A stretch of DNA of 38,675 bases from Dehalococcoidales bacterium (GCA_036481135.1 JAZGHN010000045.1:1-38675); one strand, 5' to 3'. Counted from the stretch's first letter, positions 6,651-37,685 are shown. Program-made: numbers and translations. Notes: generated by a model from the letters alone, not told the origin.

Positions 6651-6726
6651 TGGTGGAGCTGAGGGGACTCGAACCCCTGACCTCCTCCGTGCAAAGGAGG
6701 CGCTCTCCCAGCTGAGCTACAGCCCC
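6651..6726 (-). tRNA. tRNA-Ala (anticodon UGC), CCA encoded
   Basis: The reverse complement folds as a cloverleaf: GGGGCTG TA GCTC AGCTGGGA GAGC G CCTCC TTTGCAC GGAGG AGGTC AGGGG TTCGAGT CCCCT CAGCTCC ACCA. The anticodon loop is TT-TGC-AC. The G3:U70 alanine identity pair is present. Length is 76 nt. Confidence 0.95.
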
Positions 6727-9656: not shown

Positions 9657-10088
9657 TCACTTCTTCTTTTGGCGGCACTCGGAGCAATAGCCGGTCATCC
9701 GAACCTCAGCGCCAGTGACTTCAAAGCCCTTCTCGCGGCCGATATTCTCTTTCATCTTCGGACTCACCAAACACTCAAACTCGACAACTTTACCGCACCC
9801 CAGGCATACCAGGTGATGATGCTCGGCGGATGTTTTCACCTCATAGTGATGGTGGGTCTCATCAAAGTGAAGCTCCTCTATTAGACCTAGCTCCTTAAGC
9901 CTCCGCAGCGTTCGATAAACAGTGGATAAGCTAAGGCGAGCTTGCTTCTTCTTGGCTTGGCGATAGATTTCATCGGCATCTAGGTGTCTCCGGCGAATGA
10001 TTTCCAGAATTAAAGCCCGCTGGCGGGTCATTCTTGCCCCGGCCAAATTTAGCCCTTTGTGGTTAGTGTCTAAAGTTTGTCCTTTCAT
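9657..10088 (-). CDS. fur: Fur family transcriptional regulator
   Basis: N-terminal winged helix (LSLSTVYRTLRRLKELGLI), metal sites HHHYEV..HHHLVCLGCGKVVEF and CSECRQ (two CxxC pairs). The ATG at 10088 has an AAGGA Shine-Dalgarno, whereas the track start at 10124 is a TTG inside the promoter/operator. The choice between Fur, Zur and PerR rests only on feoAB linkage. Confidence 0.8.
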   Translation of the reverse strand: MKGQTLDTNHKGLNLAGARMTRQRALILEIIRRRHLDADEIYRQAKKKQARLSLSTVYRTLRRLKELGLIEELHFDETHHHYEVKTSAEHHHLVCLGCGKVVEFECLVSPKMKENIGREKGFEVTGAEVRMTGYCSECRQKKK

Positions 10089-10100
10089 CGCCCTGTCCTT

Positions 10101-10125
10101 ATTGCTAATGCTAATTAGTAGCAAT
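10101..10125. promoter_or_regulatory. Fur-box-like operator at the fur transcription start region
   Basis: GCTAAT GCTAAT T AGTAGC at 10104-10122 has the 6-6-1-6 (F-F-x-R) layout of the classical Fur box GATAATGATAATCATTATC, with 14/19 matches by hand count. It is flanked by 7-bp inverted arms ATTGCTA and TAGCAAT. Confidence 0.5.
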
Positions 10126-10127
10126 AA

Positions 10128-10157
10128 ATTCTAGCACGTTTGATGTCTCGCTGTCAA
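10128..10157 (-). promoter_or_regulatory. sigma70-type promoter of fur
   Basis: The minus strand reads TTGACA (10157-10152), an 18-nt spacer, then TAGAAT (10133-10128). The operator above begins 2-3 nt downstream of the -10. Confidence 0.6.
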
Positions 10158-10286
10158 TGCCTAGTGTGGGGGTTTTTGGAGGGGGAATCGAGGTATTCTG
10201 TGGGCTAGAAGTTTGAGACTTCCAATTGCTTTTTTATTTCAGGAATAGCACGCCGGGCGACTCGTTGACCCCTGAGGATGCACTCC

Positions 10287-11888
10287 TTACTCCCACAGCT
10301 CTTCGATATCCTTTTCCGCCTGTTCGCTGGGGATAAAGTCCTTGTAGGACGCAGCCGAGCCGTATTCCCGAGGCTGGAATGCCACTGGCATGGGCACAGC
10401 GTGGCCAAAGATGAGTGCCTGTTGTTTTGATGCCAGCTTGGCTAACACAGATTTGAGTTCATTCTTACCCGATATACCAGCCAGCACACTATCAATATCA
10501 CGGTTGTTGTCTAAGAAAAAGGTTGTCTTGGTTCCGATTTGGGACATAACCTCGTCATCAATGCCGCTGGGTCTCTGGTCAATTACCAGCAGGGTAACAT
10601 TATATTTGCGCATCTCACGAGCAATAACGCCGAAGATGGTCTGGGTGGCCACCTCCGGATTAAGGAATTTATGTGCTTCCTCAATAGTTATCACCAGAGG
10701 ACGTGGTGGAGCTGTATCCTCCCCCTGCGCTTTCTCCGTTCTCTCCCGATATTGGTTGTGGATACGCCGGGTAAGCAGGTTGGCTACCAGAATATAAGCG
10801 GTAATATCAGTATATCTACCAAATTCCAGGACTACATTTATCCCCTGGTCAAGGTATTCCAGAATGTGCCTTACCGGATTATCAGGGACATGGGGTTCGA
10901 GGAAGGGGAGTCGCCTGATAGTGGCTAGTCCTCGTTGTAGGTTTTGGAAGGTGCTTTCATGTATATTCAGTTCTTTTAATAGTTCCCTAGTCTCATCCGA
11001 ATCCTTGAGTTCTGACACTTCCTGCAACCAATTTCTGCCAAACCTGCGGCGCATCTGATAGACAGCTTCAACGGCGGGCTCAGTAAGGTTTAATGTCTGG
11101 CGAAGTAATACCATATCTTCAGCCTCTATCTCGTCATAGCCAATCCTGACCACAAAATCGGTGCTTACCCGCCGGCGCCTTGAGTTTTCTTCATCAAGGG
11201 TAAACACCGCTACCTTTGATGAGAAAAGCTGCTTTAGGGCTTTAACCTTCTGACCTTCTTCGTTCCTAGCTTCCCAGCCATACTCACTGTGCATATCAAA
11301 GATTAGGTTTACTGCTTTACTCTTCTGTAGCATGCCAATAAGCAGCAGCCTGGTGAAAAAGGTCTTCCCTGTGCCACTCTTGCCAAATATGCCGTTTGAC
11401 CGTTTGACCAATTCTGGCAGGTCAAGGCAAAGCTTGGTCTCCATATCTAGCGGTGTTCCAATATAGAACCGTTTTTCATCTTCGCTGCCAAAGACCAACT
11501 CTATGTCTTGGTCTGAGGCCAGATTTACTGGGGAGAAGTGGGTAGGCACTGTCTTGACTGGCTGTGGCCCCTCAATCAGGCTGGTAGCATCACCGCCGAT
11601 AGTGAGATATGGGGAGACATGAAGTGTTCCGTAGGTACTGGTTCCGGCTAATACCTCAGCGGTAAAAGGGTCGGAGACATCAGGCGGAGTAACAGTGAGC
11701 TTCTGGTCTACCACCCCCAGGTTGACATCGCTTATCATGCCGAAGAAGCGCCGCTTTTCCCCTTCAATGGTTACATAGCGCCCCACCGCCATATCCTCGA
11801 CTGAAGCCGAGCTATCCAGCCTCACCTCTACCCCTTTGTTTAATGAACCCGAGGTAACAATACCCAGCCTTTTGGTCTCTTCGGTCAT
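10287..11888 (-). CDS. HerA/FtsK-superfamily (DUF87-type) hexameric ATPase with N-terminal HAS-barrel
   Basis: 533 aa. The N-terminal barrel pattern is RLGIV...VGRYVTIEG...FFGMISDV. Walker A is GKSGTGKTFF and Walker B is LVITIEEAHKF. The downstream LLVIDQRPSGIDDEVMSQIGT is typical of HerA-type ATPases. It shares an ATGA start/stop overlap with the upstream gene. Confidence 0.8.
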   Translation of the reverse strand: MTEETKRLGIVTSGSLNKGVEVRLDSSASVEDMAVGRYVTIEGEKRRFFGMISDVNLGVVDQKLTVTPPDVSDPFTAEVLAGTSTYGTLHVSPYLTIGGDATSLIEGPQPVKTVPTHFSPVNLASDQDIELVFGSEDEKRFYIGTPLDMETKLCLDLPELVKRSNGIFGKSGTGKTFFTRLLLIGMLQKSKAVNLIFDMHSEYGWEARNEEGQKVKALKQLFSSKVAVFTLDEENSRRRRVSTDFVVRIGYDEIEAEDMVLLRQTLNLTEPAVEAVYQMRRRFGRNWLQEVSELKDSDETRELLKELNIHESTFQNLQRGLATIRRLPFLEPHVPDNPVRHILEYLDQGINVVLEFGRYTDITAYILVANLLTRRIHNQYRERTEKAQGEDTAPPRPLVITIEEAHKFLNPEVATQTIFGVIAREMRKYNVTLLVIDQRPSGIDDEVMSQIGTKTTFFLDNNRDIDSVLAGISGKNELKSVLAKLASKQQALIFGHAVPMPVAFQPREYGSAASYKDFIPSEQAEKDIEELWE

Positions 11889-12478
11889 GTTTTAATCCTT
11901 TCCAGAATGGCTTTGAGCTGATTGAAATTGCCACTGAGCGATATGGCTAACTCCTTGCCCGCGGTCACTAAAAAAGCGCGGTGGTCTTCATATACCTCGC
12001 TCATCTGGCGCAGCGAGGCAGCAATAAGCTCCTCGGGAGAGACAGGCAGGCGAGTGTTAATCAATATATTGAGGAAGCTGAAAGACTGGCTGAACTCTTT
12101 CACTTCTTGGGGGGAGCAGAGGTAAACAAAGCCGTGGATTCGGGCTGGCTTGGGTGGTAGATAGTGATGCAATGTATCACCCTGCCTGTGCCCCACCACC
12201 ACCGCCCCGAATTCGCTTTTAAGCAGCTTCAAAAGCTGTGGGCTTGCCTGATAGATGCCTTCCTCAGTGGTCTCATCCTTGCCTCTGGCAATGGGGCGCC
12301 GACCAGGCTCAAGACTGGTGGTAGTGGCGTTATAGACGATGCCATATAACTCCACATCCGAATCTCTGGTCTTTACCAGGCTGCCTAAAGGCGGCGACTG
12401 ATAAAGCTCATAGCACTGCGCCACGAAGTCGGTGGTGCTGGCTTCAATAACCTCGCCTACTCTCTGTGTTTCGCCCAT
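11885..12478 (-). CDS. stand-alone HAS-barrel-like protein (resembles a detached HerA N-terminal domain) with helical tail
   Basis: 197 aa. RVGEVIEASTTDFVAQ...LGSLVKT....ELYGIVYN and later PPKPARIHGFVYLCSPQEVKEF align by eye with the N-terminal about 130 aa of the adjacent ATPase (RLGIVTSGS...VGRYVTIEG..FFGMISDV ... PTHFSPVNLASDQDIELVF). It has no Walker motifs. Confidence 0.55.
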   Translation of the reverse strand: MGETQRVGEVIEASTTDFVAQCYELYQSPPLGSLVKTRDSDVELYGIVYNATTTSLEPGRRPIARGKDETTEEGIYQASPQLLKLLKSEFGAVVVGHRQGDTLHHYLPPKPARIHGFVYLCSPQEVKEFSQSFSFLNILINTRLPVSPEELIAASLRQMSEVYEDHRAFLVTAGKELAISLSGNFNQLKAILERIKT

Positions 12479-12496
12479 CCTTTATGCCTCCCGGTG

Positions 12497-13315
12497 TCAA
12501 AATTCAATGAACCAGCCTTCAATCTCATCATAAAATTTCCATCCCTCCTCGCTGGAACAGTCAATAAACATCCTCCATTCCTCATCTTCATCCTCAACCG
12601 CAACTATAACATGATTGGGGTACTGAGGGTCAGTAGGGTTGTCAATATCTATATAAACGAAGCTGAGCTTGTAGGGATATGGTGTCGCCTTAAGTAGAGT
12701 GGCGAGAAGTATGGTTAAATCTTCACAATCACCCTCGCCCTCGGTAAGCGTCTCTATCGGCCAGCGGGGAACTTCCCCGATATCTTTGGAGTATACTGTT
12801 AGCTGACTCACCATATTGAATGCTTCTTGAACAAATTCTCGCCCACCACTGGACTGCTGGTAAAAGCTGGGAATAACCTCGGTAAATTCGTCCGGGTGGA
12901 CATAGGGCCTGTAGTCAAACACGGTGCAAATACCGTCGTTACACTGGAGTGAGACGGTCTTATTAGGCTTGGGGGTATTGCTCCAGCTGCGGTAGCTCTC
13001 CAGGGGCAGCACCCACTTGCGCAAATTGCCGTCCATATCCTTCCATACCCATGCTATATTCCCCTCTGAAATAGAAGTATAGGGCACTGTCAGGGATTGC
13101 TCCGATTCAGCCGAAGTAGCGGGCTGCTCAGTCCATACCTTACCGTATCTGCTTTCCAGTTCACTATAGTTATCTAGGAGACGACCATATTGCTCTGTTA
13201 GGGAGGCAAGCGCATGCTCTAACTGGCTAACCTTGTTGTATTGCCATCCCAGAAGAGCCAGTGCAACCGAAAGCAGAATTATTGTAATCAGAAGTGTTCT
13301 GTTCCACCTAACCAT
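12497..13315 (-). CDS. membrane-anchored transglutaminase-like (papain-fold Cys-His-Asp) domain protein
   Basis: 272 aa. It has an N-terminal basic stretch plus one TM helix (RTLLITIILLSVALALLGW), then a heptad-like segment. The C-terminal GEGDCEDLTILLATLLKA ... NHVIVAV ... FIDCS matches the transglutaminase-core pattern G.GvCeDfa.L...LLRa / H.w.ev / D. An 18-nt gap separates it from the next gene. Confidence 0.6.
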   Translation of the reverse strand: MVRWNRTLLITIILLSVALALLGWQYNKVSQLEHALASLTEQYGRLLDNYSELESRYGKVWTEQPATSAESEQSLTVPYTSISEGNIAWVWKDMDGNLRKWVLPLESYRSWSNTPKPNKTVSLQCNDGICTVFDYRPYVHPDEFTEVIPSFYQQSSGGREFVQEAFNMVSQLTVYSKDIGEVPRWPIETLTEGEGDCEDLTILLATLLKATPYPYKLSFVYIDIDNPTDPQYPNHVIVAVEDEDEEWRMFIDCSSEEGWKFYDEIEGWFIEF

Positions 13316-13334
13316 GCTTTACCTATTCGGTTTT

Positions 13335-13403
13335 CTATTTCTTCTTCTTTTTATCCTTGCTCTGCTTGGGCTTCTTTATGTTCTTCCTTCCTTTAGTTCC
13401 CAT
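13335..13403 (-). CDS. candidate 22-aa poly-lysine micro-ORF (MGTKGRKNIKKPKQSKDKKKKK)
   Basis: Not in the ORF track because it is too short. GGAGG lies at 13414-13410, 6 nt before the ATG at 13403, and TAG is at 13337-13335. The ORF ends 19 nt before the transglutaminase-like gene's ATG. 13 of 22 residues are K or R. I have no homology evidence. Confidence 0.35.
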   Translation of the reverse strand: MGTKGRKNIKKPKQSKDKKKKK

Positions 13404-13498
13404 CTCTTTCCTCCTTTAAATAAACTACTTTGCTCTTTCTATCCTTACTTAACCTCTCTAAGTTATACATTATATATAATAAGGAAGCTTGAAGGGGT

Positions 13499-14695
13499 TT
13501 ATATCCACCTTGTTCTTTTGCTCCTGCTCTTGGCTGAGCCGATACTGGGCAGGTGTTCCTCCACCATAGACGACTCCACTAATTGCCAGAAGTTCTCCCT
13601 ATCGGCTCCAGTTACCACCGCCTGTTCATGGGCTTCGCTTAGGGCTACCGGGTATCCCTGTCCCCGCTGGCACTGGTCTAAAACCAGGGTGTGGACCAGA
13701 TTGAGCAGGCTATCATCGGTTGCCACCCACTGGGGAATCTCAACCCTGGCTACCTCATCATCAACCCTCAGGTAGAAGAAATAGACCCGATGCCCTCCGT
13801 AGCGCTTCTGGATTTTAGACTGGCTGATAAACAGGGCTGATCTTTCCCTCTCGCTTAGTAGATTGAGGAACAGCTCCCTGTCCTGAACACCGGCTACCGC
13901 ATCGCAGTCGCTTTTCCCGCAGGTTTTGCAATGGAGGTCGGTATCAACAATATCTTGGGGGCAGAGGGCTACCCGCAGGGCATTAATTACATCGGTGCTG
14001 CGGGGGAAGCTGATATAGCTGGCAAGGGCGAGCTTCTTATCGCTATTAACCTTTCTCATATTATCAAGACAGCTGAGAAAGCCTTTATTCAGCAGGGCTT
14101 CAGCGACAAATTCGGGGTAAGCCTCTAGACCCCAGAGAATAAGTGAACCGTCAAGCAGGGCCACACTTGAGCCGCCCGGCGGCAGCTCCGAGGCTAGTTT
14201 GGCTAACTGGCAGCACTCGTCTACGCTGCGCTTTACTCCCAGAAGGGTGCCCTCTATGGGTTGCTCACGACCTTTAGCCTCAGTTGAGGCGATAACCAGC
14301 TCTTCATCTTCGGAATAGAGACAGGGGAAACTATCCAGGGTGGCACTGGGGGAGTCACCGTAGTGGAGAACGACCGAGCCTATATTTATGAGATAGCACC
14401 TTGTTGACCGATGTCGGTCGACGTCGATGTGAGAGCCATCGGTAGCCAGGACGGTGAACTCTGCGGGGGCGGGCGGTGGTTTGTGATGCTGGTCAAGCCC
14501 ATCCACCAAACCAGCCACCAGCCAGGTGGTCCTGCTGGTGGCAATCTTCTTTTGTAAGTCTTTGAAGTTGGAAGCCTGACTGTGAATGACATCCAGAGCA
14601 GTCTGGAGGCGTTTCTGCCTCTCCTCGCTGCCAGCCTTCAGTCTGGCTAGCATATTTCCCACCTGTGCCACAACCCTGGTTAAATTTAACGACAT
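13499..14695 (-). CDS. NurA-domain nuclease-like protein
   Basis: The motifs VLATDGSHIDVDRH and VALLDGSLILWGLE match the acidic catalytic motifs of the NurA (RNase H-like) fold. The N-terminal about 70 aa is helical. The ATG at 14695 is preceded by TATAAT (14719-14714) and AAGAGGG, whereas the track start at 14743 is a TTG. Confidence 0.7.
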   Translation of the reverse strand: MSLNLTRVVAQVGNMLARLKAGSEERQKRLQTALDVIHSQASNFKDLQKKIATSRTTWLVAGLVDGLDQHHKPPPAPAEFTVLATDGSHIDVDRHRSTRCYLINIGSVVLHYGDSPSATLDSFPCLYSEDEELVIASTEAKGREQPIEGTLLGVKRSVDECCQLAKLASELPPGGSSVALLDGSLILWGLEAYPEFVAEALLNKGFLSCLDNMRKVNSDKKLALASYISFPRSTDVINALRVALCPQDIVDTDLHCKTCGKSDCDAVAGVQDRELFLNLLSERERSALFISQSKIQKRYGGHRVYFFYLRVDDEVARVEIPQWVATDDSLLNLVHTLVLDQCQRGQGYPVALSEAHEQAVVTGADRENFWQLVESSMVEEHLPSIGSAKSRSKRTRWI

Positions 14696-14806
14696 CCCTC
14701 TTACTCTTGCTTCATTATAATTAATTAAAACCGATGAACACAAGCGGTGCTCTGCTTGGTAAACAACCTTGGTCGGGTTAGAGATAGCGAGGTCAGATGT
14801 GCTACA

Positions 14807-15436
14807 ATGACCAAGGTTGTTTTTATGTTCCTATTTTTAGGCTCTGTGGCAGTAATTTCGTTGTCAGGGGTGATGATGCCTGGCCCTGTATTTGCTGTCA
14901 CCCTGGCTAGAAGTTATAAGTCCCAGTTTGCCGGCATGCGGGTAGCTTTGGGGCATGCCTTGGTAGAAATCCCGTTAATGCTGCTGATATACTTTGGCTT
15001 TGCCTCGTTCTTTCAGGAGGCGCTGGTTCAAAAGGTTCTGTATTTAGTGGGTGGGGCTGTCCTGGTGTGGTTGGGCATAGGGACATTAAGAGCCAGGGGC
15101 AGGGTGGTGGAGGAGGGTAGGGACTCGCCTCATAAATCGGTTGTTGCCGGTGCGGTTACCAGTGCCCTCAACCCATTCTTTGTTCTGTGGTGGGCAACCA
15201 TAGGCAGCATGCTTATCATGAAGTCCCTAATCTTTGGCTTAATCGGATTTATTCTGTTTGCTGTGGTTCATCTGCTCTGTGATTTTGGCTGGCTGTCCTT
15301 TGTTTCCGTTCTTGGCCATCGGACTAAATTCCTGTGGGGGGGAAGATTTCGGGATGGGTTATTCATTGCCTCCGGCGCGCTGCTTATCGGATTTGGGAGC
15401 TGGTTCCTCAGTTCAGGATTCCAGGTAACAGTTTAA
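14807..15436 (+). CDS. LysE/RhtB family amino-acid exporter
   Basis: About 209 aa from the ATG at 14807 (MTKVVFMFLF..), with six hydrophobic segments. PGPVFAVT near the N-terminus and NPFFVLWW are typical of LysE-type translocators. The track start at 14747 is a GTG adding a non-hydrophobic 20 aa. Confidence 0.7.
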   Translation: MTKVVFMFLFLGSVAVISLSGVMMPGPVFAVTLARSYKSQFAGMRVALGHALVEIPLMLLIYFGFASFFQEALVQKVLYLVGGAVLVWLGIGTLRARGRVVEEGRDSPHKSVVAGAVTSALNPFFVLWWATIGSMLIMKSLIFGLIGFILFAVVHLLCDFGWLSFVSVLGHRTKFLWGGRFRDGLFIASGALLIGFGSWFLSSGFQVTV

Positions 15437-21626: not shown

Positions 21627-21887
21627 ATGAAAGACATGATAGTAAAGACAAGAATCTTTGAGCTATGCAATGAGCGCTACCGGAACCTATCTGAGCTAGC
21701 CCGTTCTATGGGGGTATCGATAAGCCAGATTTATCGGGTGCGTGAAGGCAGTCGCAGCATCAACCAAAAATTCATTGTTGGGGCAATAAGAGCCTTTCCT
21801 GATCACGGACTGGAGGAACTCTTTTACCTTGTCCCTGACTTGGGGGATGAGCGATTAGCAAAAGAGAGGGTGGGGAGTTCAAACTAG
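21627..21887 (+). CDS. small XRE/Cro-like helix-turn-helix DNA-binding protein
   Basis: 86 aa with an HTH signature LSELARSMGVSISQIYRVREG. Its 3' end overlaps the 3' end of the convergent priA by 9 nt. Confidence 0.65.
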   Translation: MKDMIVKTRIFELCNERYRNLSELARSMGVSISQIYRVREGSRSINQKFIVGAIRAFPDHGLEELFYLVPDLGDERLAKERVGSSN

Positions 21888-24323
21888 ACCTACGGGGTCA
21901 ATATCTACTGTCCAACCCCGGGGAATAGGTATCTGTGATAGGAAAACAGAAGGCTCCGCCCCGCGAAGTATGAGCTGCCAACGAAATCTCCCTCGTAGCC
22001 GGTGAATAAATGCTGGTGCTGGTCCAATTATACTGAGTTCATCTATTCCTTTTGCCTCTATCTCCCCCCTGAGCAGACGCTTCATTCTTTCTGCCTCTCG
22101 CTGGCAACGAGCATCGTTGGTGTGGCTATAGACCAGGCGAGCCAGCCGACTGAAGGGGGGATTGTGGAGCTGACGCCGGTAATCGATTTCTTTTTCATAA
22201 AAGGAGGCATAGTCGTGTTCAGCTGCCATCTGGATGGCGTAGTGCCCTGGGGAGTAGGTCTGAATAATAACCTGTCCCTTAGGTCCACCCCGTCCTGCTC
22301 TCCCCAGCACCTGAGATAGTAGTTGGAAGGTTCTCTCCCCAGCCCGGAAATCAGGGAAGTTTAGACTGGTATCAGCGCTGATTACCCCCACCAGGGTCAC
22401 CAGGGGTAAATCCAGTCCCTTGGCTACCATCTGTGTGCCGATAAGAATATCAGCATTGTGGGCACGGAACTTGTTTAATATCTCCTGATGAGAGTATCTT
22501 CCTCTGGTAACATCACTGTCCCACCGTAGCAACCTAGCTCTGGGGAAGGTATGACCGGCTTCCTTCTCCAATTTCTCGGTGCCAATGCCCAAAAACTTTA
22601 TCCGTTGACTTGAGCATTGAGGGCAGGTCTGAGGGACCGGCATTTTGTAGTTGCACTGGTGGCAGAGCAGAACATCCTCGGCGAAGTGGCAGGTAAGGGG
22701 AACCTCGCAGCGCCGGCAGCGGAGGACAAAGCCACAATTACGGCATTGAATAAAGGTAGCCCCTCCCCTCCGATTAAGAAATAGAATCACCTGTTCCTTA
22801 TTGTCCACCGCTTTATCTGTAGCTTGTGATAAAGAGCGACTAAAAATGCTTACATTCCCTGCCTTAAGCTCGTCTCTTAAGTCTATTACCTCGACTTGGG
22901 GTAGGGGAGAGCCTTCCTTGGGGACAACCCGTTCTGGAAGTTGAAGTAAGCGGTAGTATCCTCTTTGAGCATGATAGAAGGTCTCTACATCGGGGGTAGC
23001 ACTGCCCAGGACAACCACCGCCCCGGTTAGCTTAGCCAGCTTTATAGCGACATCACGGGTATGGTAGCGGGGTGATTTGTCCTGCTGCTTGTAAGTCCAT
23101 TCATGTTCCTCATCAATAACGATGAGGCCCAGCTCAGGTTGGGGGGCAAAAACGGCGCTTCTGGGGCCGATAACCACATCGACCCCTCCATTTCTTATTC
23201 GCTGCCACTCATCAAATTGTTCCCCCAGGGAGAGTTTGCTGTGAATGACAGCCACCTTGTGGGGAAGGCGTGAGGCAAATCGCTCTATAGTCTGGGGAGT
23301 GAGGGCAATCTCTGGAACCAGAACAATGCCTCGCTTGCCCAGCTTCACCGTCTCAGCTAGAGCCTGCAGATAGAGCTCTGTCTTGCCGCTTCCAGTAACC
23401 CCATGGAGCAAAAAAATTGCTGGCGGAGCTTGTCCTGTTGCCACCTGGAGTAGGCTTGACCTGATAGCTTTTAGAGCCGACTTTTGGGCGACGGTGAGTT
23501 TCGGTGGCGCTGATGGGGCGATGCCCTGGTAGGAAATCGGCTCGCGTTTTACCTCAATCTGTTGAAACTCGATTAAACCTTTACTGACTAGGGCATCAGC
23601 CACCGCTTTATCACAGTCGACTCTCTTCCTGGCTTCTGTCCAGGATACGGGTTCAGCCTGCCCAGCTAGGAAGTCGATGAGGGCAGCCTGTTTAATAGCT
23701 CCTTTTTGGCGCAGCTTGGCTGCTTCCTGTCGGGCTTCACCGGCCTTCACCACCAGGCGCAGGTAAGGCACTCTCTTCGGTTTTACCTTAACCCGCTCTA
23801 ATTCATAGCTCTTTGCCAGCAATCCTTGACCGATCAGTTGAGCGGTGATCAGCCTAGCTTGCCTAGCCCCTAGCACCTTTTCTAGCTCTCTGAGCTTGAC
23901 TTTGCCTTGTTGCCAAACCGATTCCAGAACATGCCTCTGTTCTCGAGTGAGAGAAGATATGTCCTGCTCATGAGGGGGTATGGGACTATAAATAAAGGTG
24001 ACCACCTTTCGCTCAAATCCCGGTGGTAGCATTAAAGCCACAGCGTTGAAAAGGGGTGATAGATAGTGCTCGCTTATCCAGCGAGCCAACGATATCTGGG
24101 GTGGTGATAGCACAGGACGAGGTTCAATAATGTCGGCTATTTCTCTGGTTTCCTCTACAGCAGGGTAGTCGGTTAATTCTAAAACGATCCCTTGGAGTGT
24201 CTTGTCGCCAAAGGGAACCCATACTGCCTGCCCCACCTCAATGCTCAGACCAGAGGGTATAGTGTAGCTAAATGTGTTACGTTGTGCTATTGGTGAGTTA
24301 ACACTAACTTCAGCATACCTCAT
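21879..24323 (-). CDS. priA: primosomal protein N' (replication restart helicase PriA)
   Basis: 814 aa with Walker A GVTGSGKTE, DEEH, and a double zinc-finger insertion CRNCG..CRRCE..CHQCN..CPQCS. The C-terminal domain is typical of PriA. Confidence 0.92.
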   Translation of the reverse strand: MRYAEVSVNSPIAQRNTFSYTIPSGLSIEVGQAVWVPFGDKTLQGIVLELTDYPAVEETREIADIIEPRPVLSPPQISLARWISEHYLSPLFNAVALMLPPGFERKVVTFIYSPIPPHEQDISSLTREQRHVLESVWQQGKVKLRELEKVLGARQARLITAQLIGQGLLAKSYELERVKVKPKRVPYLRLVVKAGEARQEAAKLRQKGAIKQAALIDFLAGQAEPVSWTEARKRVDCDKAVADALVSKGLIEFQQIEVKREPISYQGIAPSAPPKLTVAQKSALKAIRSSLLQVATGQAPPAIFLLHGVTGSGKTELYLQALAETVKLGKRGIVLVPEIALTPQTIERFASRLPHKVAVIHSKLSLGEQFDEWQRIRNGGVDVVIGPRSAVFAPQPELGLIVIDEEHEWTYKQQDKSPRYHTRDVAIKLAKLTGAVVVLGSATPDVETFYHAQRGYYRLLQLPERVVPKEGSPLPQVEVIDLRDELKAGNVSIFSRSLSQATDKAVDNKEQVILFLNRRGGATFIQCRNCGFVLRCRRCEVPLTCHFAEDVLLCHQCNYKMPVPQTCPQCSSQRIKFLGIGTEKLEKEAGHTFPRARLLRWDSDVTRGRYSHQEILNKFRAHNADILIGTQMVAKGLDLPLVTLVGVISADTSLNFPDFRAGERTFQLLSQVLGRAGRGGPKGQVIIQTYSPGHYAIQMAAEHDYASFYEKEIDYRRQLHNPPFSRLARLVYSHTNDARCQREAERMKRLLRGEIEAKGIDELSIIGPAPAFIHRLRGRFRWQLILRGAEPSVFLSQIPIPRGWTVDIDPVGLV

Positions 24324-26267: not shown

Positions 26268-26702
26268 ATGTTTTTTGGTGAATTCGAATATAGGATTGAT
26301 GAGAAAGGGAGGGTCCCCATCCCTCCAAAGTTCAGAGGTGTATTAAAAGGGGGAGTGGTATTAACGCCGGGGGCAGAACAGTGCGTTAATGTTTATCCAC
26401 TACCTGAGTGGAAGAATATAGCTACTACTCTTACCACCGGCGTCATTACCCCCAGCAAGTTGAGAAGACTAAATCGGGCTATTTTTGCCACTGCTTTTAG
26501 CATTGAGGTTGATGGGCAGGGCAGGATAGTCTTGCCTATTTCATTACGGGAGTATGCCGGGATTAAAGATGCGGTAGTTATCACTGGAGTTAACAATTAC
26601 CTCGAGCTGTGGAATAAAGAGCAGTGGGAGGCGGAGAAGGCTATTAGCCAGGAACAGGCCTGGCAAATTATAGAAAGCTTAGAGAGGCATCGGGAGAGTT
26701 AA
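26268..26702 (+). CDS. mraZ: division/cell wall cluster transcriptional regulator MraZ
   Basis: 144 aa with [21 protein letters not shown] and a second repeat [16 protein letters not shown], the two SpoVT/AbrB-like halves with DxxxR. Confidence 0.92.
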
Positions 26703-26704
26703 AG

Positions 26705-27706
26705 ATGATAACTCATATCCCGGTTTTAGTCAAAGAGACCGTTGAGGCACTGGCGGTGCAGCCCGGGGGCCGCTATATTGATTGCACCCTGGGGGGTGGG
26801 GGTCATGCTGCTGCCATTTTGGAGCGGAGTTCACCCGGTGGACAATTACTGGGCATAGACGCTGACCCTGAAGCGATAAAGATAGCCGGGACAAAGCTCC
26901 GGGCTTATAGTGGCTCTACCCTTCTAATTAATGAAAACTTCATCAATCTACGGGCTATTTGTGTCAGGCATGCTTTCTACCCGGTGCACGGTATTTTGTT
27001 CGACCTGGGGCTTTCCTCCCTTCAGCTCAATGGCAATAATCGTGGCTTCAGCTTCCTGCGCGATGCGCCCTTAGATATGCGCTTGAATCCTGGCCAGGAT
27101 ATTACCGCTGCTGATATCATTAACACTTCCTCTGAGACCGAACTAGCTCGCATTATAAGAGTATATGGTGAGGAAGCCCATAGCCGTCAGATTGCCCATC
27201 GCATTGTGCAGGAACGCTCCATAGCAACTACCCTTCAACTGGTTGAGACGGTAGAGCGAGCCGTCGGGGGTTGGAGGGGTAGAATCCATCCCGCCACCAA
27301 GACCTTTCAAGCATTGCGAATAGCGGTTAACCACGAATTGGAGCATCTGGAGGCTGCTCTCAAGCAGGCGATCGACCTTCTTGGGTTTGAGGGTAGGTTG
27401 GTGGTCATTAGCTATCACTCCCTCGAAGACCGCATTGTGAAACAGCTTATGCAGCGGGAATCGAGGGATTGTATTTGCCCTCCGGGTACACCGACTTGCA
27501 TTTGTGGACATACCGCTTGCCTCAAGTTAATTACCAAGAGGGTTATTACCCCCTCTCCTACAGAGGTTCAACTTAACCCGCGTAGTCGTAGCGCTAAATT
27601 AAGAGTTGCTGAGCGCATTATTACTTGGGATAAACGCCGTAATATGGCTGGAAAGGCTGGTTCTTCAGCCAAGGTGAAGGTAACGGCTGGAGAGAACGCC
27701 CGGTAA
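26705..27706 (+). CDS. rsmH: 16S rRNA (cytosine1402-N4)-methyltransferase RsmH
   Basis: 333 aa with [29 protein letters not shown] and [14 protein letters not shown]. The C-terminal extension of about 25 aa is basic. Confidence 0.92.
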
Positions 27707-27815
27707 CTTTTCGTTCCCTAGATTACATAAAGTTTTGGAGACAACAGATAAGGAGGTTTTGAAGATGTGAAATGATGCAAACGAGAATCAAAATCTTAAT
27801 GAAAGGAGGATGTGG

Positions 27816-29024
27816 ATGAGAAAGCCATCTATTTTGTCTGCTGTTGATGTTGGCACCACTAAGGTATGTACCATTATAGCTGAGATCTATAATGGGAATG
27901 CTATCCAGGTTGCCGGCGTGGGTATTAGTCCATCCAAGGGATTGCATAAGGGGTTAGTGGTCAGCATGAATGAGGCCAAGGAATCAATACGGGACTCGGT
28001 GAGGAAGGCAGAGCAAAGCAGTGGTTACAGAGTGGAATCTGCTTATGTCGGTGTGACTGGCAGGCATGTCAGCTCGATGAACAACCGAGGGGTGGTGGCC
28101 ATTACCCGTAATGACCGGCTGGTACGCCCAGAAGACCTGAGGCGGGTACTTACTTGTGCCCAGGATTTCAAGGTCCCTAGCGATAGAAAGCTGCTCCATG
28201 TTATTTCTCGGGGTTATGCTGTTGATGGTCAGGTAGGAGTCAAGAACCCAGTAGGGATGCATGGCTTCAGGCTGGATGTGGAGACGCATATCATTACTGC
28301 TGGGGTAGCTTCCGTCCAGAACCTGATAAGGTGTATTCGCAGTGTTGGTGTAGATGTTGAGGACCTCGTCCTTGAACCCTTAGCCAGCAGCGAGGCGGTA
28401 TTGACTGAGGATGAGAGGCAAGTAGGCGTGGTACTAGCTGATATCGGTGGTGGAACCACAGATATTGCTATATTTAAGGATGGAAGTATCTGGCATACCT
28501 CTATTCTGCCTGTAGCTGGTTATCAGGTCACCAGAGATGTAGCTATTGGTTTGGGACTGCCCTTTGATGTTGCCGAGGAAATGAAGAAGAAGTATGGCAG
28601 TGTTATGCCGGTTTATGAAGGCAAGGCGGAAAACACCAACCCACTATCCGAAAATGGACATGGCATTTCCTACAAGGACCTATGCGACATCATCAAGGCC
28701 CGAATTGATGAAATAATAAGGCTTATTCTGCTTGAGTTACCGCGCACTGAGCATGAATCATTGGTTCCCGCTGGAGTGGTCCTTACTGGTGGTAGCTCTA
28801 ACCTTTCTGGCATAGAGATATTGGGGCGCGATATATCGCGACTTCCGGTGAGGGTAGGCCTTCCTACCGAAATGCATGGCATCACCGATGTCCTTCGTGA
28901 CCCAGCGTATGCCACTAGTGTTGGCCTTCTGCTTTGGGGGGCAAAGCGTGAAAGCAAGCAGACTTGGAGATCTCGTGGATTCTTACGAAGGTTGGTTTCC
29001 CGAGTTAAGAACTTGTTCCGTTGA
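27816..29024 (+). CDS. ftsA: cell division protein FtsA (actin-like ATPase)
   Basis: AVDVGTTKV, ADIGGGTTDIAIF and VLTGGSSNLSGI are actin-fold phosphate and adenosine motifs. GGAGG at 27805-27809 abuts the track ATG at 27810 but lies 6 nt from the ATG at 27816, so I prefer 27816. Confidence 0.9.
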   Translation: MRKPSILSAVDVGTTKVCTIIAEIYNGNAIQVAGVGISPSKGLHKGLVVSMNEAKESIRDSVRKAEQSSGYRVESAYVGVTGRHVSSMNNRGVVAITRNDRLVRPEDLRRVLTCAQDFKVPSDRKLLHVISRGYAVDGQVGVKNPVGMHGFRLDVETHIITAGVASVQNLIRCIRSVGVDVEDLVLEPLASSEAVLTEDERQVGVVLADIGGGTTDIAIFKDGSIWHTSILPVAGYQVTRDVAIGLGLPFDVAEEMKKKYGSVMPVYEGKAENTNPLSENGHGISYKDLCDIIKARIDEIIRLILLELPRTEHESLVPAGVVLTGGSSNLSGIEILGRDISRLPVRVGLPTEMHGITDVLRDPAYATSVGLLLWGAKRESKQTWRSRGFLRRLVSRVKNLFR

Positions 29025-29058
29025 AAGTTACCAATAATGGTAGAGAAAGGAGGAAACG

Positions 29059-30198
29059 ATGGCAAAAGCAAGTTTTGTCCCTAACCCAGCCAAGATTAAG
29101 GTTATCGGCCTAGGTGGTGGTGGCTGTAATGCTATAACTCGTATGGCTCAAGAGGGGATTCAAGGCGTGGAGCTCATCGCCATGAATACCGATGCTCAAG
29201 CCCTAGCCATCACTGAAGCCCCAACCCGTATCCAGCTTGGAGAGAAGCTTACCAAAGGGTTGGGTGTAGGTGGTGACCATATGCAGGGTCAGAAGGCAGC
29301 CGAGGAGAGCCGTGATAAACTAGAGGGGCTTGTCTCTGGAGCCGATATGGTGTTTATCACCTGCGGTATGGGCGGTGGCACCGGCACCGGGGCTGCTTCC
29401 GTTATTGCCGAATTGTCCAAGCAAGGTGGAGCCCTTACTATCGCTGTAGTCACCAAACCATTTGGCTTTGAGGGTATCCACCGCAGTGACGTGGCACAGG
29501 AGGGGATTGCTCGCCTGCTAGGCAAGGTTGATACTCTTATTATTATCCCTAATGACCGCTTGCTCGATATCTGTGACCAGAAGGCGGCAGTGGATAATGC
29601 CTTTAAGCTAGCCGATGATGTGTTAAGACACGGAGTTCAGGCTATCTCTGAAGTTATCACTGTCCCTGGGATGATTAACCTTGACTTTGCTGATGTCAAG
29701 GCGGTGATGAAGGATGCTGGTCCAGCTTGGATGTCTATAGGCACCGGTTCAGGTAAGAACCGAGCTGTAGAAGCAGCTAAGGAAGCCTTGGCCAGCCCCT
29801 TGTTAGACGTTTCTATTGATGGGTCAAGAGGGGTGTTGTTCAATGTTGTTGGCGGTAGTAGCCTTACCCTGTTTGAGGTTAATGAAGCAGCAGAGGTAGT
29901 CAAGCAGGCGGTAGACCATGAGGCTAATATCATCTTCGGAGTGGCTCATGACCTTAGTATGGATGAGGACATAAGGATTACCCTAGTTGCCACTGGATTC
30001 ACTTCTAGGACGGGGCTGCCTGAAGGTGTAAAGGAGGATGAACTTACCCAACTCCTTAGGGGCTTAAAGACCGAAGAGGAAATGGATATTCCCTCTTTCA
30101 TCCGTCGCCCTATGTTTAACCGTCGACGTCAGGCAATGATTCCGCCTACCGAGCCTATTGAGGCACCGGTACCCACGCCACAATCTCTAACCCATTGA
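29059..30198 (+). CDS. ftsZ: cell division GTPase FtsZ
   Basis: 379 aa with GLGGGGCNA, NTDAQAL, tubulin signature GGGTGTGA, and a C-terminal DIPSFIRR peptide. Confidence 0.95.
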   Translation: MAKASFVPNPAKIKVIGLGGGGCNAITRMAQEGIQGVELIAMNTDAQALAITEAPTRIQLGEKLTKGLGVGGDHMQGQKAAEESRDKLEGLVSGADMVFITCGMGGGTGTGAASVIAELSKQGGALTIAVVTKPFGFEGIHRSDVAQEGIARLLGKVDTLIIIPNDRLLDICDQKAAVDNAFKLADDVLRHGVQAISEVITVPGMINLDFADVKAVMKDAGPAWMSIGTGSGKNRAVEAAKEALASPLLDVSIDGSRGVLFNVVGGSSLTLFEVNEAAEVVKQAVDHEANIIFGVAHDLSMDEDIRITLVATGFTSRTGLPEGVKEDELTQLLRGLKTEEEMDIPSFIRRPMFNRRRQAMIPPTEPIEAPVPTPQSLTH

Positions 30199-37190: not shown

Positions 37191-37681
37191 GAATTTTAGG
37201 CATTGACCCGGGCACAGTTGCTATGGGTTACGGGGTGATAGACAGTGGTGACGATGAAACAACTCTGGTTGATTGTGGTGTTTTAGATTGCCCGAAGCGC
37301 TCCCCGATAGGGGAGCGCTTGAGCTTTTTATATGGGGAGCTGGAGAAGATTATCTCACGCTATCAGCCTGAGGCGGTGGCTATAGAGCAACCCTTCGTGG
37401 CCAAGAATGTAAGGTCGACGCTGGCTATAGGTAAGGCGCAGGCAGTGGCTATTCTGGCAGCAGCCAACAGGGGAATCCCATCCTATGAATACACCCCAAC
37501 CCAGGTGAAGCAGAGGGTAGCCGATTACGGAGGCAGTTCCAAGGAGCAGGTTCAGGAGATGGTCAAGCTCCAGCTTGGATTAGCTGAAGTGCCCCAGCCA
37601 GCCGACGCCGCCGATGCCCTGGCGGTGGCTATCTGCCACCTGCGTGAGACATATCTGAGTAATCTGTTGGCAAAGCAGTGA
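37187..37681 (+). CDS. ruvC: crossover junction endodeoxyribonuclease RuvC
   Basis: 164 aa with ILGIDPG, VAIEQPF and a DAADALAVAICH C-terminal catalytic Asp/His region. It shares an ATGA overlap with yebC. Confidence 0.92.
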   Translation: MRILGIDPGTVAMGYGVIDSGDDETTLVDCGVLDCPKRSPIGERLSFLYGELEKIISRYQPEAVAIEQPFVAKNVRSTLAIGKAQAVAILAAANRGIPSYEYTPTQVKQRVADYGGSSKEQVQEMVKLQLGLAEVPQPADAADALAVAICHLRETYLSNLLAKQ

Positions 37682-37685
37682 GGAA

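What the first reader, a model, noticed from the sequence alone, without database searches (positions are those of the whole stretch)
10287..14743. HerA-NurA cluster with three extra parts: poly-Lys micro-ORF, membrane transglutaminase-fold protein and detached HAS-barrel protein
Seen in sequence: the co-directional minus-strand genes run NurA-like nuclease (13499-14695), then a 95-nt gap, then a GGAGG-preceded 22-codon micro-ORF (13335-13403). Next comes a 19-nt gap, the TM-anchored transglutaminase-core protein (12497-13315), an 18-nt gap, and a 197-aa HAS-barrel-like protein (11885-12478). That protein shares an ATGA overlap with the HerA/DUF87 ATPase (10287-11888). The spacing implies co-transcription and translational coupling of at least the last three genes.
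Established knowledge: archaeal HerA-NurA works with Mre11-Rad50 in DNA end resection, and the NurA dimer docks on the HAS-barrel face of the HerA hexamer. HerA-family ATPases are also the scaffold of recently described anti-phage systems, where they pair with Sir2 or DUF4297 effectors.
No mre11 or rad50 is present here. I do not recognise a five-part arrangement of nuclease, peptide, protease-fold protein, free barrel and ATPase as a described system.
Inference: this is either a variant end-processing machine or a HerA-scaffolded defence or stress module. The flanks are housekeeping genes (fur-feoAB and lysE/HDAC) with no integrase, which argues against a mobile island.
Basis: partly seen in the sequence, partly recalled or inferred. 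Interest (0 to 1): 0.75.

Follow-up and report, generated by a model that had tools for sequence, protein, structure and literature searches.

The report
NurA–HerA repair module with extra subunit
This is a bacterial NurA–HerA DNA-end-processing gene cluster whose conserved core has an undescribed third protein, a free copy of HerA's N-terminal barrel; a conserved tiny lysine-rich gene usually lies upstream, and the transglutaminase-like gene is unrelated inserted cargo.

Summary
All five ORFs exist at the stated coordinates, with the stated spacings and folds. These are NurA (Pfam 6e-29), HerA (DUF87 1e-31 plus its own HAS barrel), a membrane-anchored transglutaminase-fold protein, a 197-aa protein ("P197") and a 22-codon Lys-rich ORF. 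P197's AlphaFold model (pLDDT 96.5) matches only HerA N-terminal regions in the PDB.

The five-part system is not supported. In 80 Dehalococcoidales species loci, HerA follows P197 in 78, and in 66 of those the genes overlap or nearly abut. NurA lies upstream in 37 of the 41 loci with at least 6 kb of upstream sequence, across a gap of 24 nt to 5.3 kb that holds unrelated cargo. The transglutaminase gene is in 1 of 80.

The order NurA–P197–HerA recurs in distant lineages (P197 30–50% identical), usually with 4-nt overlaps. Once it is followed by SbcD/SbcC (Mre11/Rad50), which points to DNA end resection rather than defence. P197 has no relatives on plasmid or viral contigs.

The micro-ORF (MG[ST]KGRKN[VI]KKPK…) is a real conserved coding gene. 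It sits between NurA and P197 in 39 of 46 loci but also occurs in other contexts.

Verdict: a new three-component variant of NurA–HerA, of moderate interest.

The parts
13499..14695 (-). NurA-family nuclease, 398 aa from the ATG at 14695. It is a divergent subtype with an N-terminal extension of about 80 aa and an invariant Cys cluster.
   Evidence: Pfam NurA 6.2e-29 over residues 81-361, covering the full model. D86-G87-S88, E160, D182-G183, G347-Y348-P349 and H356-E357 are invariant across relatives down to 35% identity. No PDB hit by sequence or profile.
13410..13414 (-). Shine-Dalgarno GGAGG, 6 nt upstream of the micro-ORF ATG.
   Evidence: Sequence. An SD-like motif is present upstream of 60 of 60 micro-ORF copies in species loci.
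13335..13403 (-). Conserved 22-codon Lys-rich micro-ORF, MGTKGRKNIKKPKQSKDKKKKK, net charge +11.
   Evidence: The same peptide motif lies between NurA and P197 in 39 of 46 loci. It occurs nowhere else in about 1 Mb of locus DNA. Third-codon-position entropy is 0.91 bits against 0.35 and 0.21 at positions 1 and 2, and the flanks are not conserved. It has no Pfam or NCBIfam family. It also occurs in other gene contexts.
12497..13315 (-). Membrane-anchored transglutaminase-fold (putative cysteine protease) protein of 272 aa. It is judged to be cargo inserted in the variable NurA-P197 slot, not a system component.
   Evidence: Fold. Distribution: 92 homologues against 3491 for P197. It is present in 1 of 80 species loci. 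The slot holds unrelated genes elsewhere.
11885..12478 (-). P197, a free-standing HAS-barrel protein with a helical C-terminal domain. It resembles the N-terminal region of HerA and is the conserved third gene of the triad.
   Evidence: AF2 pLDDT 96.5, pTM 0.90. All 50 Foldseek PDB hits listed are HerA-family ATPase chains, best E 1.5e-6, with 122-168 aligned columns. The family has 777 clusters at 50% identity. HerA follows it in 78 of 80 loci. Triads occur in distant lineages. One NurA-P197 fused ORF exists.
11885..11888 (-). ATGA stop/start overlap of P197 and HerA.
   Evidence: Sequence. In 66 of 78 species loci the P197-HerA junction is an overlap or a gap of at most 30 nt.
10287..11888 (-). 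HerA/DUF87 hexameric ATPase-translocase, 533 aa, with its own N-terminal HAS barrel and the Walker A motif GKSGTGKT.
   Evidence: Pfam DUF87 1.3e-31 and HAS-barrel 2.5e-8. PDB HerA hits reach E 1.2e-20. Scores against the curated antiphage and archaeal HerA equivalogs are 84 bits or less, far below their 800-970 bit cut-offs.

Best explanation
The locus encodes a chromosomal, vertically inherited NurA-HerA DNA-end-processing machine of a three-component type.

Shown here:
- The conserved unit is NurA, a roughly 200-aa free HAS-barrel protein (P197) and HerA.
- P197 is translationally coupled to herA here and in most relatives.
- In distant lineages P197 is coupled to nurA as well.

Inferred mechanism:
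- HerA forms the hexameric dsDNA translocase and the NurA dimer is the nuclease, as in the solved archaeal and Deinococcus complexes.
- P197 mimics the N-terminal collar domain of HerA. I infer that it is a stoichiometric structural subunit.
- It could form an extra barrel ring, or an adaptor on the HAS face where NurA docks.
- In that position it would either mediate docking of this divergent, larger NurA or gate it.

Other parts:
- The 22-codon Lys-rich ORF is a real, conserved small gene of Dehalococcoidales that usually sits just upstream of P197. Its role is open. It may be a polycationic micro-protein that binds DNA or the acidic HerA/P197 surface, or a leader ORF.
- The transglutaminase-fold membrane protein is unrelated cargo. 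It landed in the variable slot between nurA and the micro-ORF/P197.
For: 1. Identities of NurA, HerA and P197 are established.
2. In 80 Dehalococcoidales species loci, P197 is followed by HerA in 78. The other two run off the contig.
3. In 66 of those 78 the junction is an overlap or a gap of at most 30 nt. NurA is upstream on the same strand in 37 of the 41 loci that have at least 6 kb of upstream sequence.
4. The order NurA-P197-HerA recurs in four distant contexts. These have different flanks and 31-58% GC. P197 is 30-50% identical, NurA 34-48% and HerA 44-61%.
5. In L089 and L219 both junctions of the triad overlap (4 nt, or 23 nt at P197-HerA in L219).
6. L219 and L220 continue directly into Metallophos (SbcD/Mre11) and SbcC/Rad50 genes. 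This mirrors the archaeal herA-mre11-rad50-nurA operon, as established in PMC5448004.
7. A NurA-P197 pair occurs without an adjacent HerA. One ORF fuses the NurA C-terminal part to P197.
8. P197 has no relatives in plasmid or viral collections.
9. NurA and P197 have no PADLOC hits.
10. The transglutaminase gene is in 1 of 80 loci, and the slot content is otherwise heterogeneous.
11. The micro-ORF is conserved as a coding sequence.
Against:
- P197 also occurs alone in Armatimonadota. In a cyanobacterium-like contig it sits next to a GTPase instead of HerA and NurA, so it is not strictly tied to HerA.
- The characterised Deinococcus and Thermus nurA-herA pairs work without any such third gene. 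In Thermus the nurA stop overlaps the herA start.
- No mre11 or rad50 lies within the 38.7-kb window.
- The slot next to the module collects restriction-modification and toxin-antitoxin genes, and a Type ISP enzyme flanks L089. This is the sort of neighbourhood defence genes keep.
- The sample of distant contexts is small: eight contexts in all.
- The micro-ORF is not exclusive to the locus. Of 24 copies with at least 2.5 kb of downstream sequence, 9 have no P197 there.
Confidence: 0.65

Rival explanations
1. HerA-scaffolded anti-phage or anti-plasmid system. HerA captures invading DNA and feeds it to NurA as the nuclease effector. P197 acts as a sensor or adaptor.
For: - HerA hexamers scaffold the Sir2-HerA and DUF4297-HerA defence systems. 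These are also among P197's structural matches.
- The window HerA matches PADLOC HerA models at up to 1.5e-31.
- The slot inside the cluster collects restriction-modification-type and HicAB genes.
- A Type ISP restriction enzyme flanks L089.
- A patatin gene follows HerA in L001.
Against: - The module sits at the same chromosomal position, with the same housekeeping flanks, across dozens of species. This is not the patchy distribution typical of defence genes.
- NurA and P197 have no PADLOC hits.
- The curated antiphage HerA models score 84 and 51 bits against cut-offs of 800 and 850.
- No Sir2 or DUF4297 partner is present.
- P197 has no plasmid or viral copies.
- One distant triad is linked to SbcD/SbcC.
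Confidence: 0.17
2. One reading: an integrated five-part machine in which nuclease, peptide, transglutaminase-fold protein, free barrel and ATPase all act together.
For: - Spacing in the window is tight, at 19 nt, 18 nt and a 4-nt overlap.
- Wherever close homologues of the transglutaminase protein were looked up in Dehalococcoidales, they lie in this same slot, down to 56% identity.
- A different Transglut_core protein lies between P197 and HerA in L086.
Against: - The transglutaminase gene is absent from 79 of 80 species loci that keep P197-HerA.
- Its family has 92 members against 3491 for P197. Its more distant members are archaeal pentapeptide-repeat fusions.
- It has an N-terminal membrane anchor, so the catalytic domain is probably outside the cytoplasm (inference).
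- In L044 NurA and P197 are 24 nt apart with nothing between them.
- Distant triads lack both the transglutaminase gene and the micro-ORF.
Confidence: 0.04
3. P197 is only a syntenic neighbour. It would be a decaying duplicate of the 5' end of herA, or an unrelated barrel protein, with no role in NurA-HerA function.
For: - The profile comparison of P197 with the window HerA is not significant.
- P197 stands alone in Armatimonadota and pairs with a GTPase in a cyanobacterium-like contig.
- The characterised bacterial NurA-HerA systems lack it.
Against: - The family has 777 clusters at 50% identity, all about 200 aa long.
- Columns are strongly conserved, including the DPGRRP loop.
- The model has pLDDT 96.5. 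None of this fits a decaying fragment.
- Gene order and overlaps are kept at 30-50% identity in unrelated genomic contexts.
- One ORF fuses NurA to P197.
Confidence: 0.1
4. Sub-claim on the micro-ORF. It is a translated leader whose Lys-codon run tunes translation of the downstream P197-herA genes, rather than a functional peptide.
For: - Its stop lies about 1-15 nt before the P197 start in at least a dozen species loci.
- All copies carry their own SD.
- The tail is a variable K/E-rich run.
Against: - The first 14 residues are conserved as amino acids, with synonymous changes in the DNA.
- It also occurs upstream of unrelated genes, at folP-folK/queD-like and ligT/comF/hpf-like contexts.
- It is often separated from P197 by cargo, as in this window. 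These points fit an independent small protein better.
Confidence: 0.2

Closest known systems
Bacterial NurA-HerA complex of Deinococcus radiodurans (PDB 7wrw/7wrx; PMC9960219) and the nurA-hepA pair of Thermus
   Same: Both have a NurA-family nuclease gene co-directional with a HerA ATPase that carries a HAS barrel and a RecA-like core. Both are chromosomal and lack an adjacent mre11 or rad50. The expected mode of action is a HerA hexamer pushing dsDNA into a NurA dimer docked on the HAS face.
   Different: Those systems are two-gene units. In Thermus the nurA stop overlaps the herA start. Here a conserved 197-aa free HAS-barrel gene lies between them and overlaps herA. The NurA is about 400 aa, carries a Cys cluster and has no sequence-level PDB match. 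D. radiodurans HerA is not among the sequence hits of the window HerA at E 1e-5.
Archaeal herA-mre11-rad50-nurA operon (Sulfolobus, Pyrococcus, Thermococcus; PDB 4d2i, 9x1m)
   Same: It has the same two enzyme families. A distant relative of the triad (L219/L220) is followed directly by SbcD/Mre11 and SbcC/Rad50 genes. P197's best structural matches are the N-terminal regions of these HerAs.
   Different: The archaeal operons as described in the papers read here have no free HAS-barrel subunit. The window itself has no mre11 or rad50. The gene order differs.
HerA-scaffolded anti-phage systems (Sir2-HerA/Nezha, DUF4297-HerA)
   Same: They share the HerA-family hexameric ATPase with an N-terminal HAS barrel on which a partner docks. 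These structures are among the Foldseek hits of P197.
   Different: The window has no Sir2 or DUF4297 effector. The curated antiphage HerA models score far below their cut-offs. The module is conserved at a syntenic position rather than patchily distributed.
N-terminal beta-barrel collar of F1/V1-ATPase and HerA rings (HAS-barrel domain, PF09378)
   Same: P197 residues 1 to about 120 form this barrel. 28 of 84 family members hit PF09378.
   Different: In every solved structure matched here the barrel is the N-terminal domain of the HerA-family ATPase chain. In P197 it is a separate polypeptide with its own helical C-terminal domain of about 75 aa.

Membership tests
NurA-HerA DNA end-resection module | A NurA-domain nuclease is present | tested here: met
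   PF09376, E 6.2e-29, 101.7 bits against a cut-off of 21, covering the full model.
NurA-HerA DNA end-resection module | NurA catalytic acidic and His motifs are intact | tested here: inconclusive
   DGS (86-88), E160, DG (182-183), GYP (347-349) and HE (356-357) are invariant in 9 relatives. No alignment to a solved NurA could be obtained. Equating these residues with the published catalytic residues therefore rests on memory.
NurA-HerA DNA end-resection module | HerA has an N-terminal HAS barrel plus a DUF87/RecA-like ATPase with Walker motifs | tested here: met
   DUF87 1.3e-31 and HAS-barrel 2.5e-8 (34.3 bits against a cut-off of 25.2). GKSGTGKT is present in the sequence. PDB HerA hits.
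NurA-HerA DNA end-resection module | nurA and herA are linked on one strand | tested here: met
   They are co-directional in the window. NurA is upstream of P197-HerA in 37 of the 41 loci with enough upstream sequence. Tight triads occur in distant lineages.
NurA-HerA DNA end-resection module | Linkage to mre11/rad50 (sbcD/sbcC) | tested here: not met
   Neither gene is in the 38.7-kb window. Linkage is present only in the distant relatives L219/L220. This linkage is not obligatory for the bacterial systems.
NurA-HerA DNA end-resection module | A 6:2 HerA:NurA complex with DNA-stimulated ATPase and nuclease activity | not testable with these tools
   This needs biochemistry or multimer modelling.
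HerA-scaffolded anti-phage systems (Sir2-HerA, DUF4297-HerA) | An adjacent Sir2 or DUF4297 effector | tested here: not met
   None of the cluster proteins has such a Pfam or PADLOC hit.
HerA-scaffolded anti-phage systems (Sir2-HerA, DUF4297-HerA) | HerA reaches the curated antiphage HerA model cut-off | tested here: not met
   NF042943 scores 84.3 bits against a cut-off of 800. NF042944 scores 51.5 bits against 850.
HerA-scaffolded anti-phage systems (Sir2-HerA, DUF4297-HerA) | Patchy, island-like or mobile distribution | tested here: not met
   The position and flanks are the same across most of 80 species loci. P197 has no plasmid or viral relatives. The internal slot does collect restriction-modification and toxin-antitoxin cargo.
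HAS-barrel domain (PF09378), for the 197-aa protein | Pfam model at or above the gathering score | tested here: not met
   The window protein scores 18.9 bits against 25.2. At family level, 28 of 84 members hit at E <= 0.01, best 2e-9.
HAS-barrel domain (PF09378), for the 197-aa protein | Barrel fold like the N-terminal domain of HerA | tested here: met
   AF2 pLDDT 96.5. All 50 Foldseek PDB hits listed are HerA-family ATPase chains, with E from 1.5e-6 to 2e-4 and probability 1.00.
Transglutaminase-like cysteine protease (PF01841), for the 272-aa protein | Transglutaminase-core fold with a Cys-His catalytic pair | tested here: met
   22.0 bits against a cut-off of 23. Most homologues carry PF01841. 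GDCEDL Cys197 and His235 are invariant in 48 sequences. Foldseek top hits are 3isr, 3kd4, TglA, LapG and TG2.

The most novel reading that the evidence does not exclude
A widespread class of bacterial NurA-HerA machines is really a three-subunit complex. A free HAS-barrel protein forms an extra collar or adaptor ring between the HerA hexamer and a divergent NurA, or links HerA to SbcCD. In Dehalococcoidales a +11-charged peptide of 20-29 aa, encoded just upstream, would be a fourth, regulatory or DNA-binding partner. Its gene would also mark a recombination hot spot where cargo genes enter the operon.
Probability: 0.3. Interest if true: 0.7.

Novelty: new variant of a known kind. Interest (0 to 1): 0.55.

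Why it matters
NurA-HerA is the model for translocase-coupled DNA end resection. HerA rings are also now studied as scaffolds of anti-phage systems.

All structural and biochemical work I could find treats NurA-HerA as a two-protein machine. A conserved third subunit that copies the very surface on which NurA docks would change how bacterial versions are reconstituted and interpreted. The P197 family has 777 clusters at 50% identity, and every source name seen for it is 'hypothetical protein'.

This would also give a concrete, testable function to a large family of unannotated proteins.

The micro-ORF is a clean example of a conserved 20-29 codon gene. The two annotated relatives that carry it near P197 (L001, L004) have no such gene called there, or only a longer overlapping ORF. 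Its duplicated copies around inserted genes hint at a recombination mechanism that builds variable slots inside an otherwise conserved operon.

The result also warns against reading tight spacing in one genome as evidence of a functional system.

Tried and rejected
- The search for related loci with the 84- and 19-sequence P197 alignments failed because no stretch was conserved enough. A 6-sequence alignment worked but returned only Dehalococcoidales loci.
- Distant contexts therefore rest on eight protein look-ups.
- Sequence or profile searches of the PDB gave nothing useful for P197, the transglutaminase-fold protein and NurA.
- hhalign of the P197 profile against the window HerA was not significant. 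Homology of P197 to the HerA N-terminus rests on Pfam hits of family members and on the fold.
- The promoter and terminator scan was at shuffle level. Rfam found only a tRNA elsewhere in the window.
- The micro-ORF has no Pfam or NCBIfam family. I considered a resemblance to small basic ribosomal peptides, but this came from memory only and was dropped for lack of any hit.
- I considered that the micro-ORF conservation might reflect a DNA or RNA element. I rejected this because variation sits at third codon positions and the flanks are unconserved.
- I considered the transglutaminase gene as a system part because its close homologues always lie in this slot. I rejected this on its 1-in-80 distribution.
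- Literature searches found no description of a third gene in nurA-herA operons. The 2004 FtsK-HerA comparative-genomics paper (PMC521647) is not held, so prior mention there cannot be excluded.

Full report
**Observation**

- NurA is at 13499-14695.
- The 22-codon ORF is at 13335-13403.
- The 272-aa ORF is at 12497-13315.
- The 197-aa ORF, called P197 here, is at 11885-12478.
- HerA is at 10287-11888.

The gaps are 95, 19 and 18 nt, and P197 and HerA share an ATGA overlap. The micro-ORF is preceded by GGAGG. The longest ORF for NurA starts at a TTG at 14743, but homologues align from residue 1 of the ATG-14695 form. Promoter-like and terminator-like sites in 10000-15000 are no more frequent than in shuffled sequence. 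Rfam finds nothing in the cluster. Co-transcription is therefore plausible from spacing but not shown.

**Identities**

- NurA matches PF09376 at 6.2e-29.
- HerA matches DUF87 at 1.3e-31 and has its own HAS barrel at 2.5e-8.
- The 272-aa protein is just under the Transglut_core cut-off, at 22.0 against 23 bits.
  - Most of its homologues carry PF01841.
  - Cys197 (in GDCEDL) and His235 are invariant in 48 sequences.
  - Its model has pLDDT 83.5 and a long N-terminal helix over residues 2-56.
  - The model's best PDB matches are transglutaminase-like cysteine proteases and transglutaminases.
- P197 is under the HAS-barrel cut-off, at 18.9 against 25.2 bits.
  - 28 of 84 family members hit that model, best E 2e-9.
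  - Its AlphaFold model is very confident, with pLDDT 96.5 and pTM 0.90.
  - All 50 Foldseek PDB hits listed are HerA-family ATPase chains, including 4d2i, 9x1m and 7wrw and those of the Sir2-HerA and DUF4297-HerA complexes. E-values run from 1.5e-6 and alignments span 122-168 columns.
  - The model shows a barrel in residues 1 to about 120 and a helical domain in 121-197.

**Which parts belong together: close relatives**

P197 belongs to a large family. It has 3491 hits in the 90%-identity database. It forms 777 clusters at 50% identity; most of those listed are stand-alone proteins of about 190-220 aa. Every source name seen for it is 'hypothetical protein'. The transglutaminase-fold protein has only 92 homologues, and the distant ones are archaeal pentapeptide-repeat fusions.

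I fetched 80 loci from species-representative genomes, all Dehalococcoidales or Chloroflexota MAGs with 67-90% P197 identity. I located the window's proteins in them by tblastn.
- HerA follows P197 on the same strand in 78 of 80. The other two run off the contig.
- The P197-HerA junction is an overlap or a gap of at most 30 nt in 66 of those 78.
- NurA is upstream on the same strand in 37 of the 41 loci that have at least 6 kb of upstream sequence.
- The transglutaminase gene is present in 1 of 80.
- The flanks recur in many loci: HDAC and LysE on one side, Fur and FeoB on the other. The module is thus at a fixed, vertically inherited position.

**The variable slot**

The distance between NurA and P197 ranges from 24 nt (L044) to 5.3 kb (L038). 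The slot holds 65 different ORF clusters in 49 loci. These include:
- LOG-like proteins;
- flavodoxin;
- an HSDR_N_2 protein;
- a 657-aa N6_Mtase/Eco57I enzyme;
- an N6_N4_Mtase-Mrr fusion;
- DUF2130;
- HicA- and HicB-like pairs;
- membrane proteins and lipoproteins.

The transglutaminase gene is one such insert. Its close homologues that were looked up all sit in this slot, which fits one old insertion inherited within a subclade. Its membrane anchor makes an extracytoplasmic catalytic domain likely; this is inference.

**Which parts belong together: distant relatives**

I looked up eight distant P197 homologues, giving eight contexts.
- L089 has NurA-P197-HerA with 4-nt overlaps at both junctions.
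- L213/L214 and L215/L216 have the same order.
- L219/L220 have NurA-P197-HerA followed directly by a Metallophos (SbcD/Mre11) gene and an SbcC/Rad50 gene.
- L090/L091 have NurA-P197 with a 4-nt overlap and no adjacent HerA.
- L092 has P197-HerA only.
- Armatimonadota contigs have P197 alone.
- A cyanobacterium-like contig has a P197 homologue overlapping a dynamin-like GTPase gene.

In the four full triads P197 is 30-50% identical to the window protein, NurA 34-48% and HerA 44-61%. GC content ranges from 31 to 58% and the flanks are unrelated. One database protein, P0324, is a single ORF joining the C-terminal part of NurA to P197. This could be a true fusion or a sequencing artefact at the overlap. 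P197 has no relatives in viral contigs or plasmids.

**The micro-ORF**

- The peptide MG[ST]KGRKN[VI]KKPK[QK], followed by a K/E-rich tail of 20-29 aa in total, is found in about 60 of the 86 Dehalococcoidales loci.
- It is always on the P197 strand, 63-1863 nt upstream of P197. It occurs nowhere else in about 1 Mb of locus sequence.
- It lies between NurA and P197 in 39 of the 46 loci that have a full NurA.
- DNA alignment shows synonymous changes within the ORF, unconserved flanks and an SD before each copy.
- Entropy at codon positions 1, 2 and 3 is 0.35, 0.21 and 0.91 bits. 60 of 60 copies have an SD. The regex used to find copies fixes several residues, so positions 1 and 2 are partly constrained by selection. 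Residues not fixed by the regex are still nearly invariant: N8, V/I9, P12 and K13.

For an unbiased reverse test I scanned metagenome contigs with a degenerate DNA pattern for the first 13 codons.
- 63 of 125 copies have P197 downstream in the sequence available.
- Of the 24 copies with at least 2.5 kb of downstream sequence, 15 have P197 and 9 do not.
- The other contexts recur. One is folP-folK / micro-ORF / queD-like. Another is amidohydrolase / micro-ORF / ligT-like, Zn-ribbon, comF-like, hpf-like. These gene names are by eye.

The micro-ORF is therefore a real small gene of this order. It is preferentially but not exclusively linked to P197-herA, and it is absent from the distant triads. 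It has no Pfam or NCBIfam family.

**Mechanism**

Established knowledge:
- HerA hexamers translocate dsDNA.
- A NurA dimer docks on the ring of HAS barrels.
- In Deinococcus the interface pairs an acidic HerA surface with a basic NurA surface (PMC9960219).

Shown here:
- P197 copies the fold of that docking domain.
- P197 is encoded between, and translationally coupled to, the two enzymes across deep divergence.

Inferred:
- P197 is a stoichiometric subunit. It could form an additional collar or an adaptor on the HAS face.
- It would mediate or gate docking of this divergent NurA. This NurA is about 400 aa, has an N-terminal extension of about 80 aa, has three invariant cysteines and has no PDB sequence match.

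The SbcD/SbcC linkage in L219/L220 parallels the archaeal operon and the Oceanithermus arrangement described in PMC5448004. It favours double-strand-break end resection.

A defence role is the main rival. It draws on the HerA defence scaffolds, the restriction-modification and toxin-antitoxin cargo in the slot, and the Type ISP and patatin neighbours. Against it stand:
- the fixed syntenic position;
- the absence of PADLOC hits for NurA and P197;
- curated antiphage HerA models scoring far below cut-off;
- the absence of mobile copies.

**Comparison with known systems and novelty**

The Thermus nurA-hepA pair has no third gene, because the nurA stop overlaps the hepA start. The Deinococcus work treats nurA-herA as a two-gene operon. 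Full-text searches found no description of a free HAS-barrel partner. The 2004 FtsK-HerA survey is not held, so an earlier mention there cannot be ruled out.

I class the finding as a new variant of a known kind: NurA-HerA with a conserved third component and, in one order, a conserved micro-gene. The five-part system as proposed is not real.

**Scores**

Interest is 0.55. The third subunit would interest DNA-repair and HerA structural biologists and is directly testable. But the function remains inferred, and the headline claim of a five-part machine with a protease-fold member is refuted.

Noticed in passing
L219:5814-13159 and L220:5814-13184: NurA, P197 and HerA are followed by a Metallophos (SbcD/Mre11-like) gene and an SbcC/Rad50-like gene as one co-directional block; the first four genes overlap. 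This is a bacterial counterpart of the archaeal herA-mre11-rad50-nurA operon, with the extra P197 gene inside it.
   Followed up: partly
L217:5839-7597 and L218:1070-2828: A cyanobacterium-like contig has psaA/psaB next door. A 389-aa MMR_HSR1/dynamin-like GTPase gene overlaps a P197 homologue (36% identity) by 8 nt. No NurA or HerA is nearby, so the free barrel may also partner another NTPase.
   Followed up: partly
L005:1342-2341, L006:5116-6112, L117, L033:6713-7513, L055, L106, L131, L142, L200: Two copies of the micro-ORF flank inserted cargo. One case is micro-ORF, transglutaminase gene, micro-ORF, P197. Another is a membrane protein that begins with a micro-ORF-like N-terminus and ends in frame with a full copy. 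This suggests duplication or recombination at this sequence when cargo enters the slot.
   Followed up: partly
L005:1342-1410, L006:5116-5184, L159; compare window 13499-13525: The upstream micro-ORF copy is a chimera, MGTKGRKNIKKPKQ + SKRTRW[IV]*. That tail is identical to the C-terminal tail of the window NurA (…SAKSRSKRTRWI*).
   Followed up: no
L120, L140, L208 (folP-folK / micro-ORF / queD-like); L134, L202, L207 (amidohydrolase / micro-ORF / ligT-like, Zn-ribbon, comF-like, hpf-like): The same Lys-rich micro-ORF occurs in recurrent housekeeping contexts without P197 or HerA downstream. It therefore behaves as an independent small gene, possibly with several copies per genome. Neighbour identities are by eye only.
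   Followed up: partly
L084:8576-14951 and L086:8587-15063: A block of about 6.4 kb separates P197 from HerA. In L086 it holds seven same-strand genes. They are AraC/GyrI-like, dienelactone hydrolase, radical SAM-SPASM, a different Transglut_core protein, GNAT, PNP_UDP and DUF6886. The P197-herA coupling is thus broken in these two genomes.
   Followed up: partly
L001:9340-12772 (CP070810.1): This close relative has 88% P197 identity. NurA is reduced to a fragment of about 50 aa upstream of the micro-ORF, and a 186-aa patatin-like phospholipase gene directly follows HerA.
   Followed up: partly
L038:2762-6952, L062:6457-7719, L010:6190-7005 and L058:7090-7893, L020/L022/L080: The NurA-P197 slot repeatedly holds restriction-modification-type genes (N6_Mtase/Eco57I, N6_N4_Mtase+Mrr_cat, HSDR_N_2) and HicA- and HicB-like pairs. 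It behaves like a small integration hot spot inside a conserved operon.
   Followed up: partly
window 13790-14010 (NurA residues about 229-300): This NurA subtype has an invariant Cys cluster (C245, C256, C264, plus a further conserved Cys in LCP..D..DCD.HC…R.CD). It may be a zinc-binding insertion. The alignment contains only triad-type NurAs, so whether NurAs outside the triad share it was not tested.
   Followed up: no
P0324 (372 aa, from the 50%-identity representative library): A single ORF carries the C-terminal part of a NurA domain (residues 13-105) followed by a P197-type HAS barrel (residues 187-265). It is either a natural NurA-P197 fusion or a frameshift artefact at the overlap.
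   Followed up: no
window 21879-24323, 37187-38270, 26268-30198, 6654-6726: The rest of the window is core housekeeping, named by eye from the translations: a PriA-like helicase, RuvC and RuvA, and mraZ-rsmH-ftsA-ftsZ. There is one tRNA (Rfam, 69 bits). No integrase or transposase was seen.
   Followed up: no
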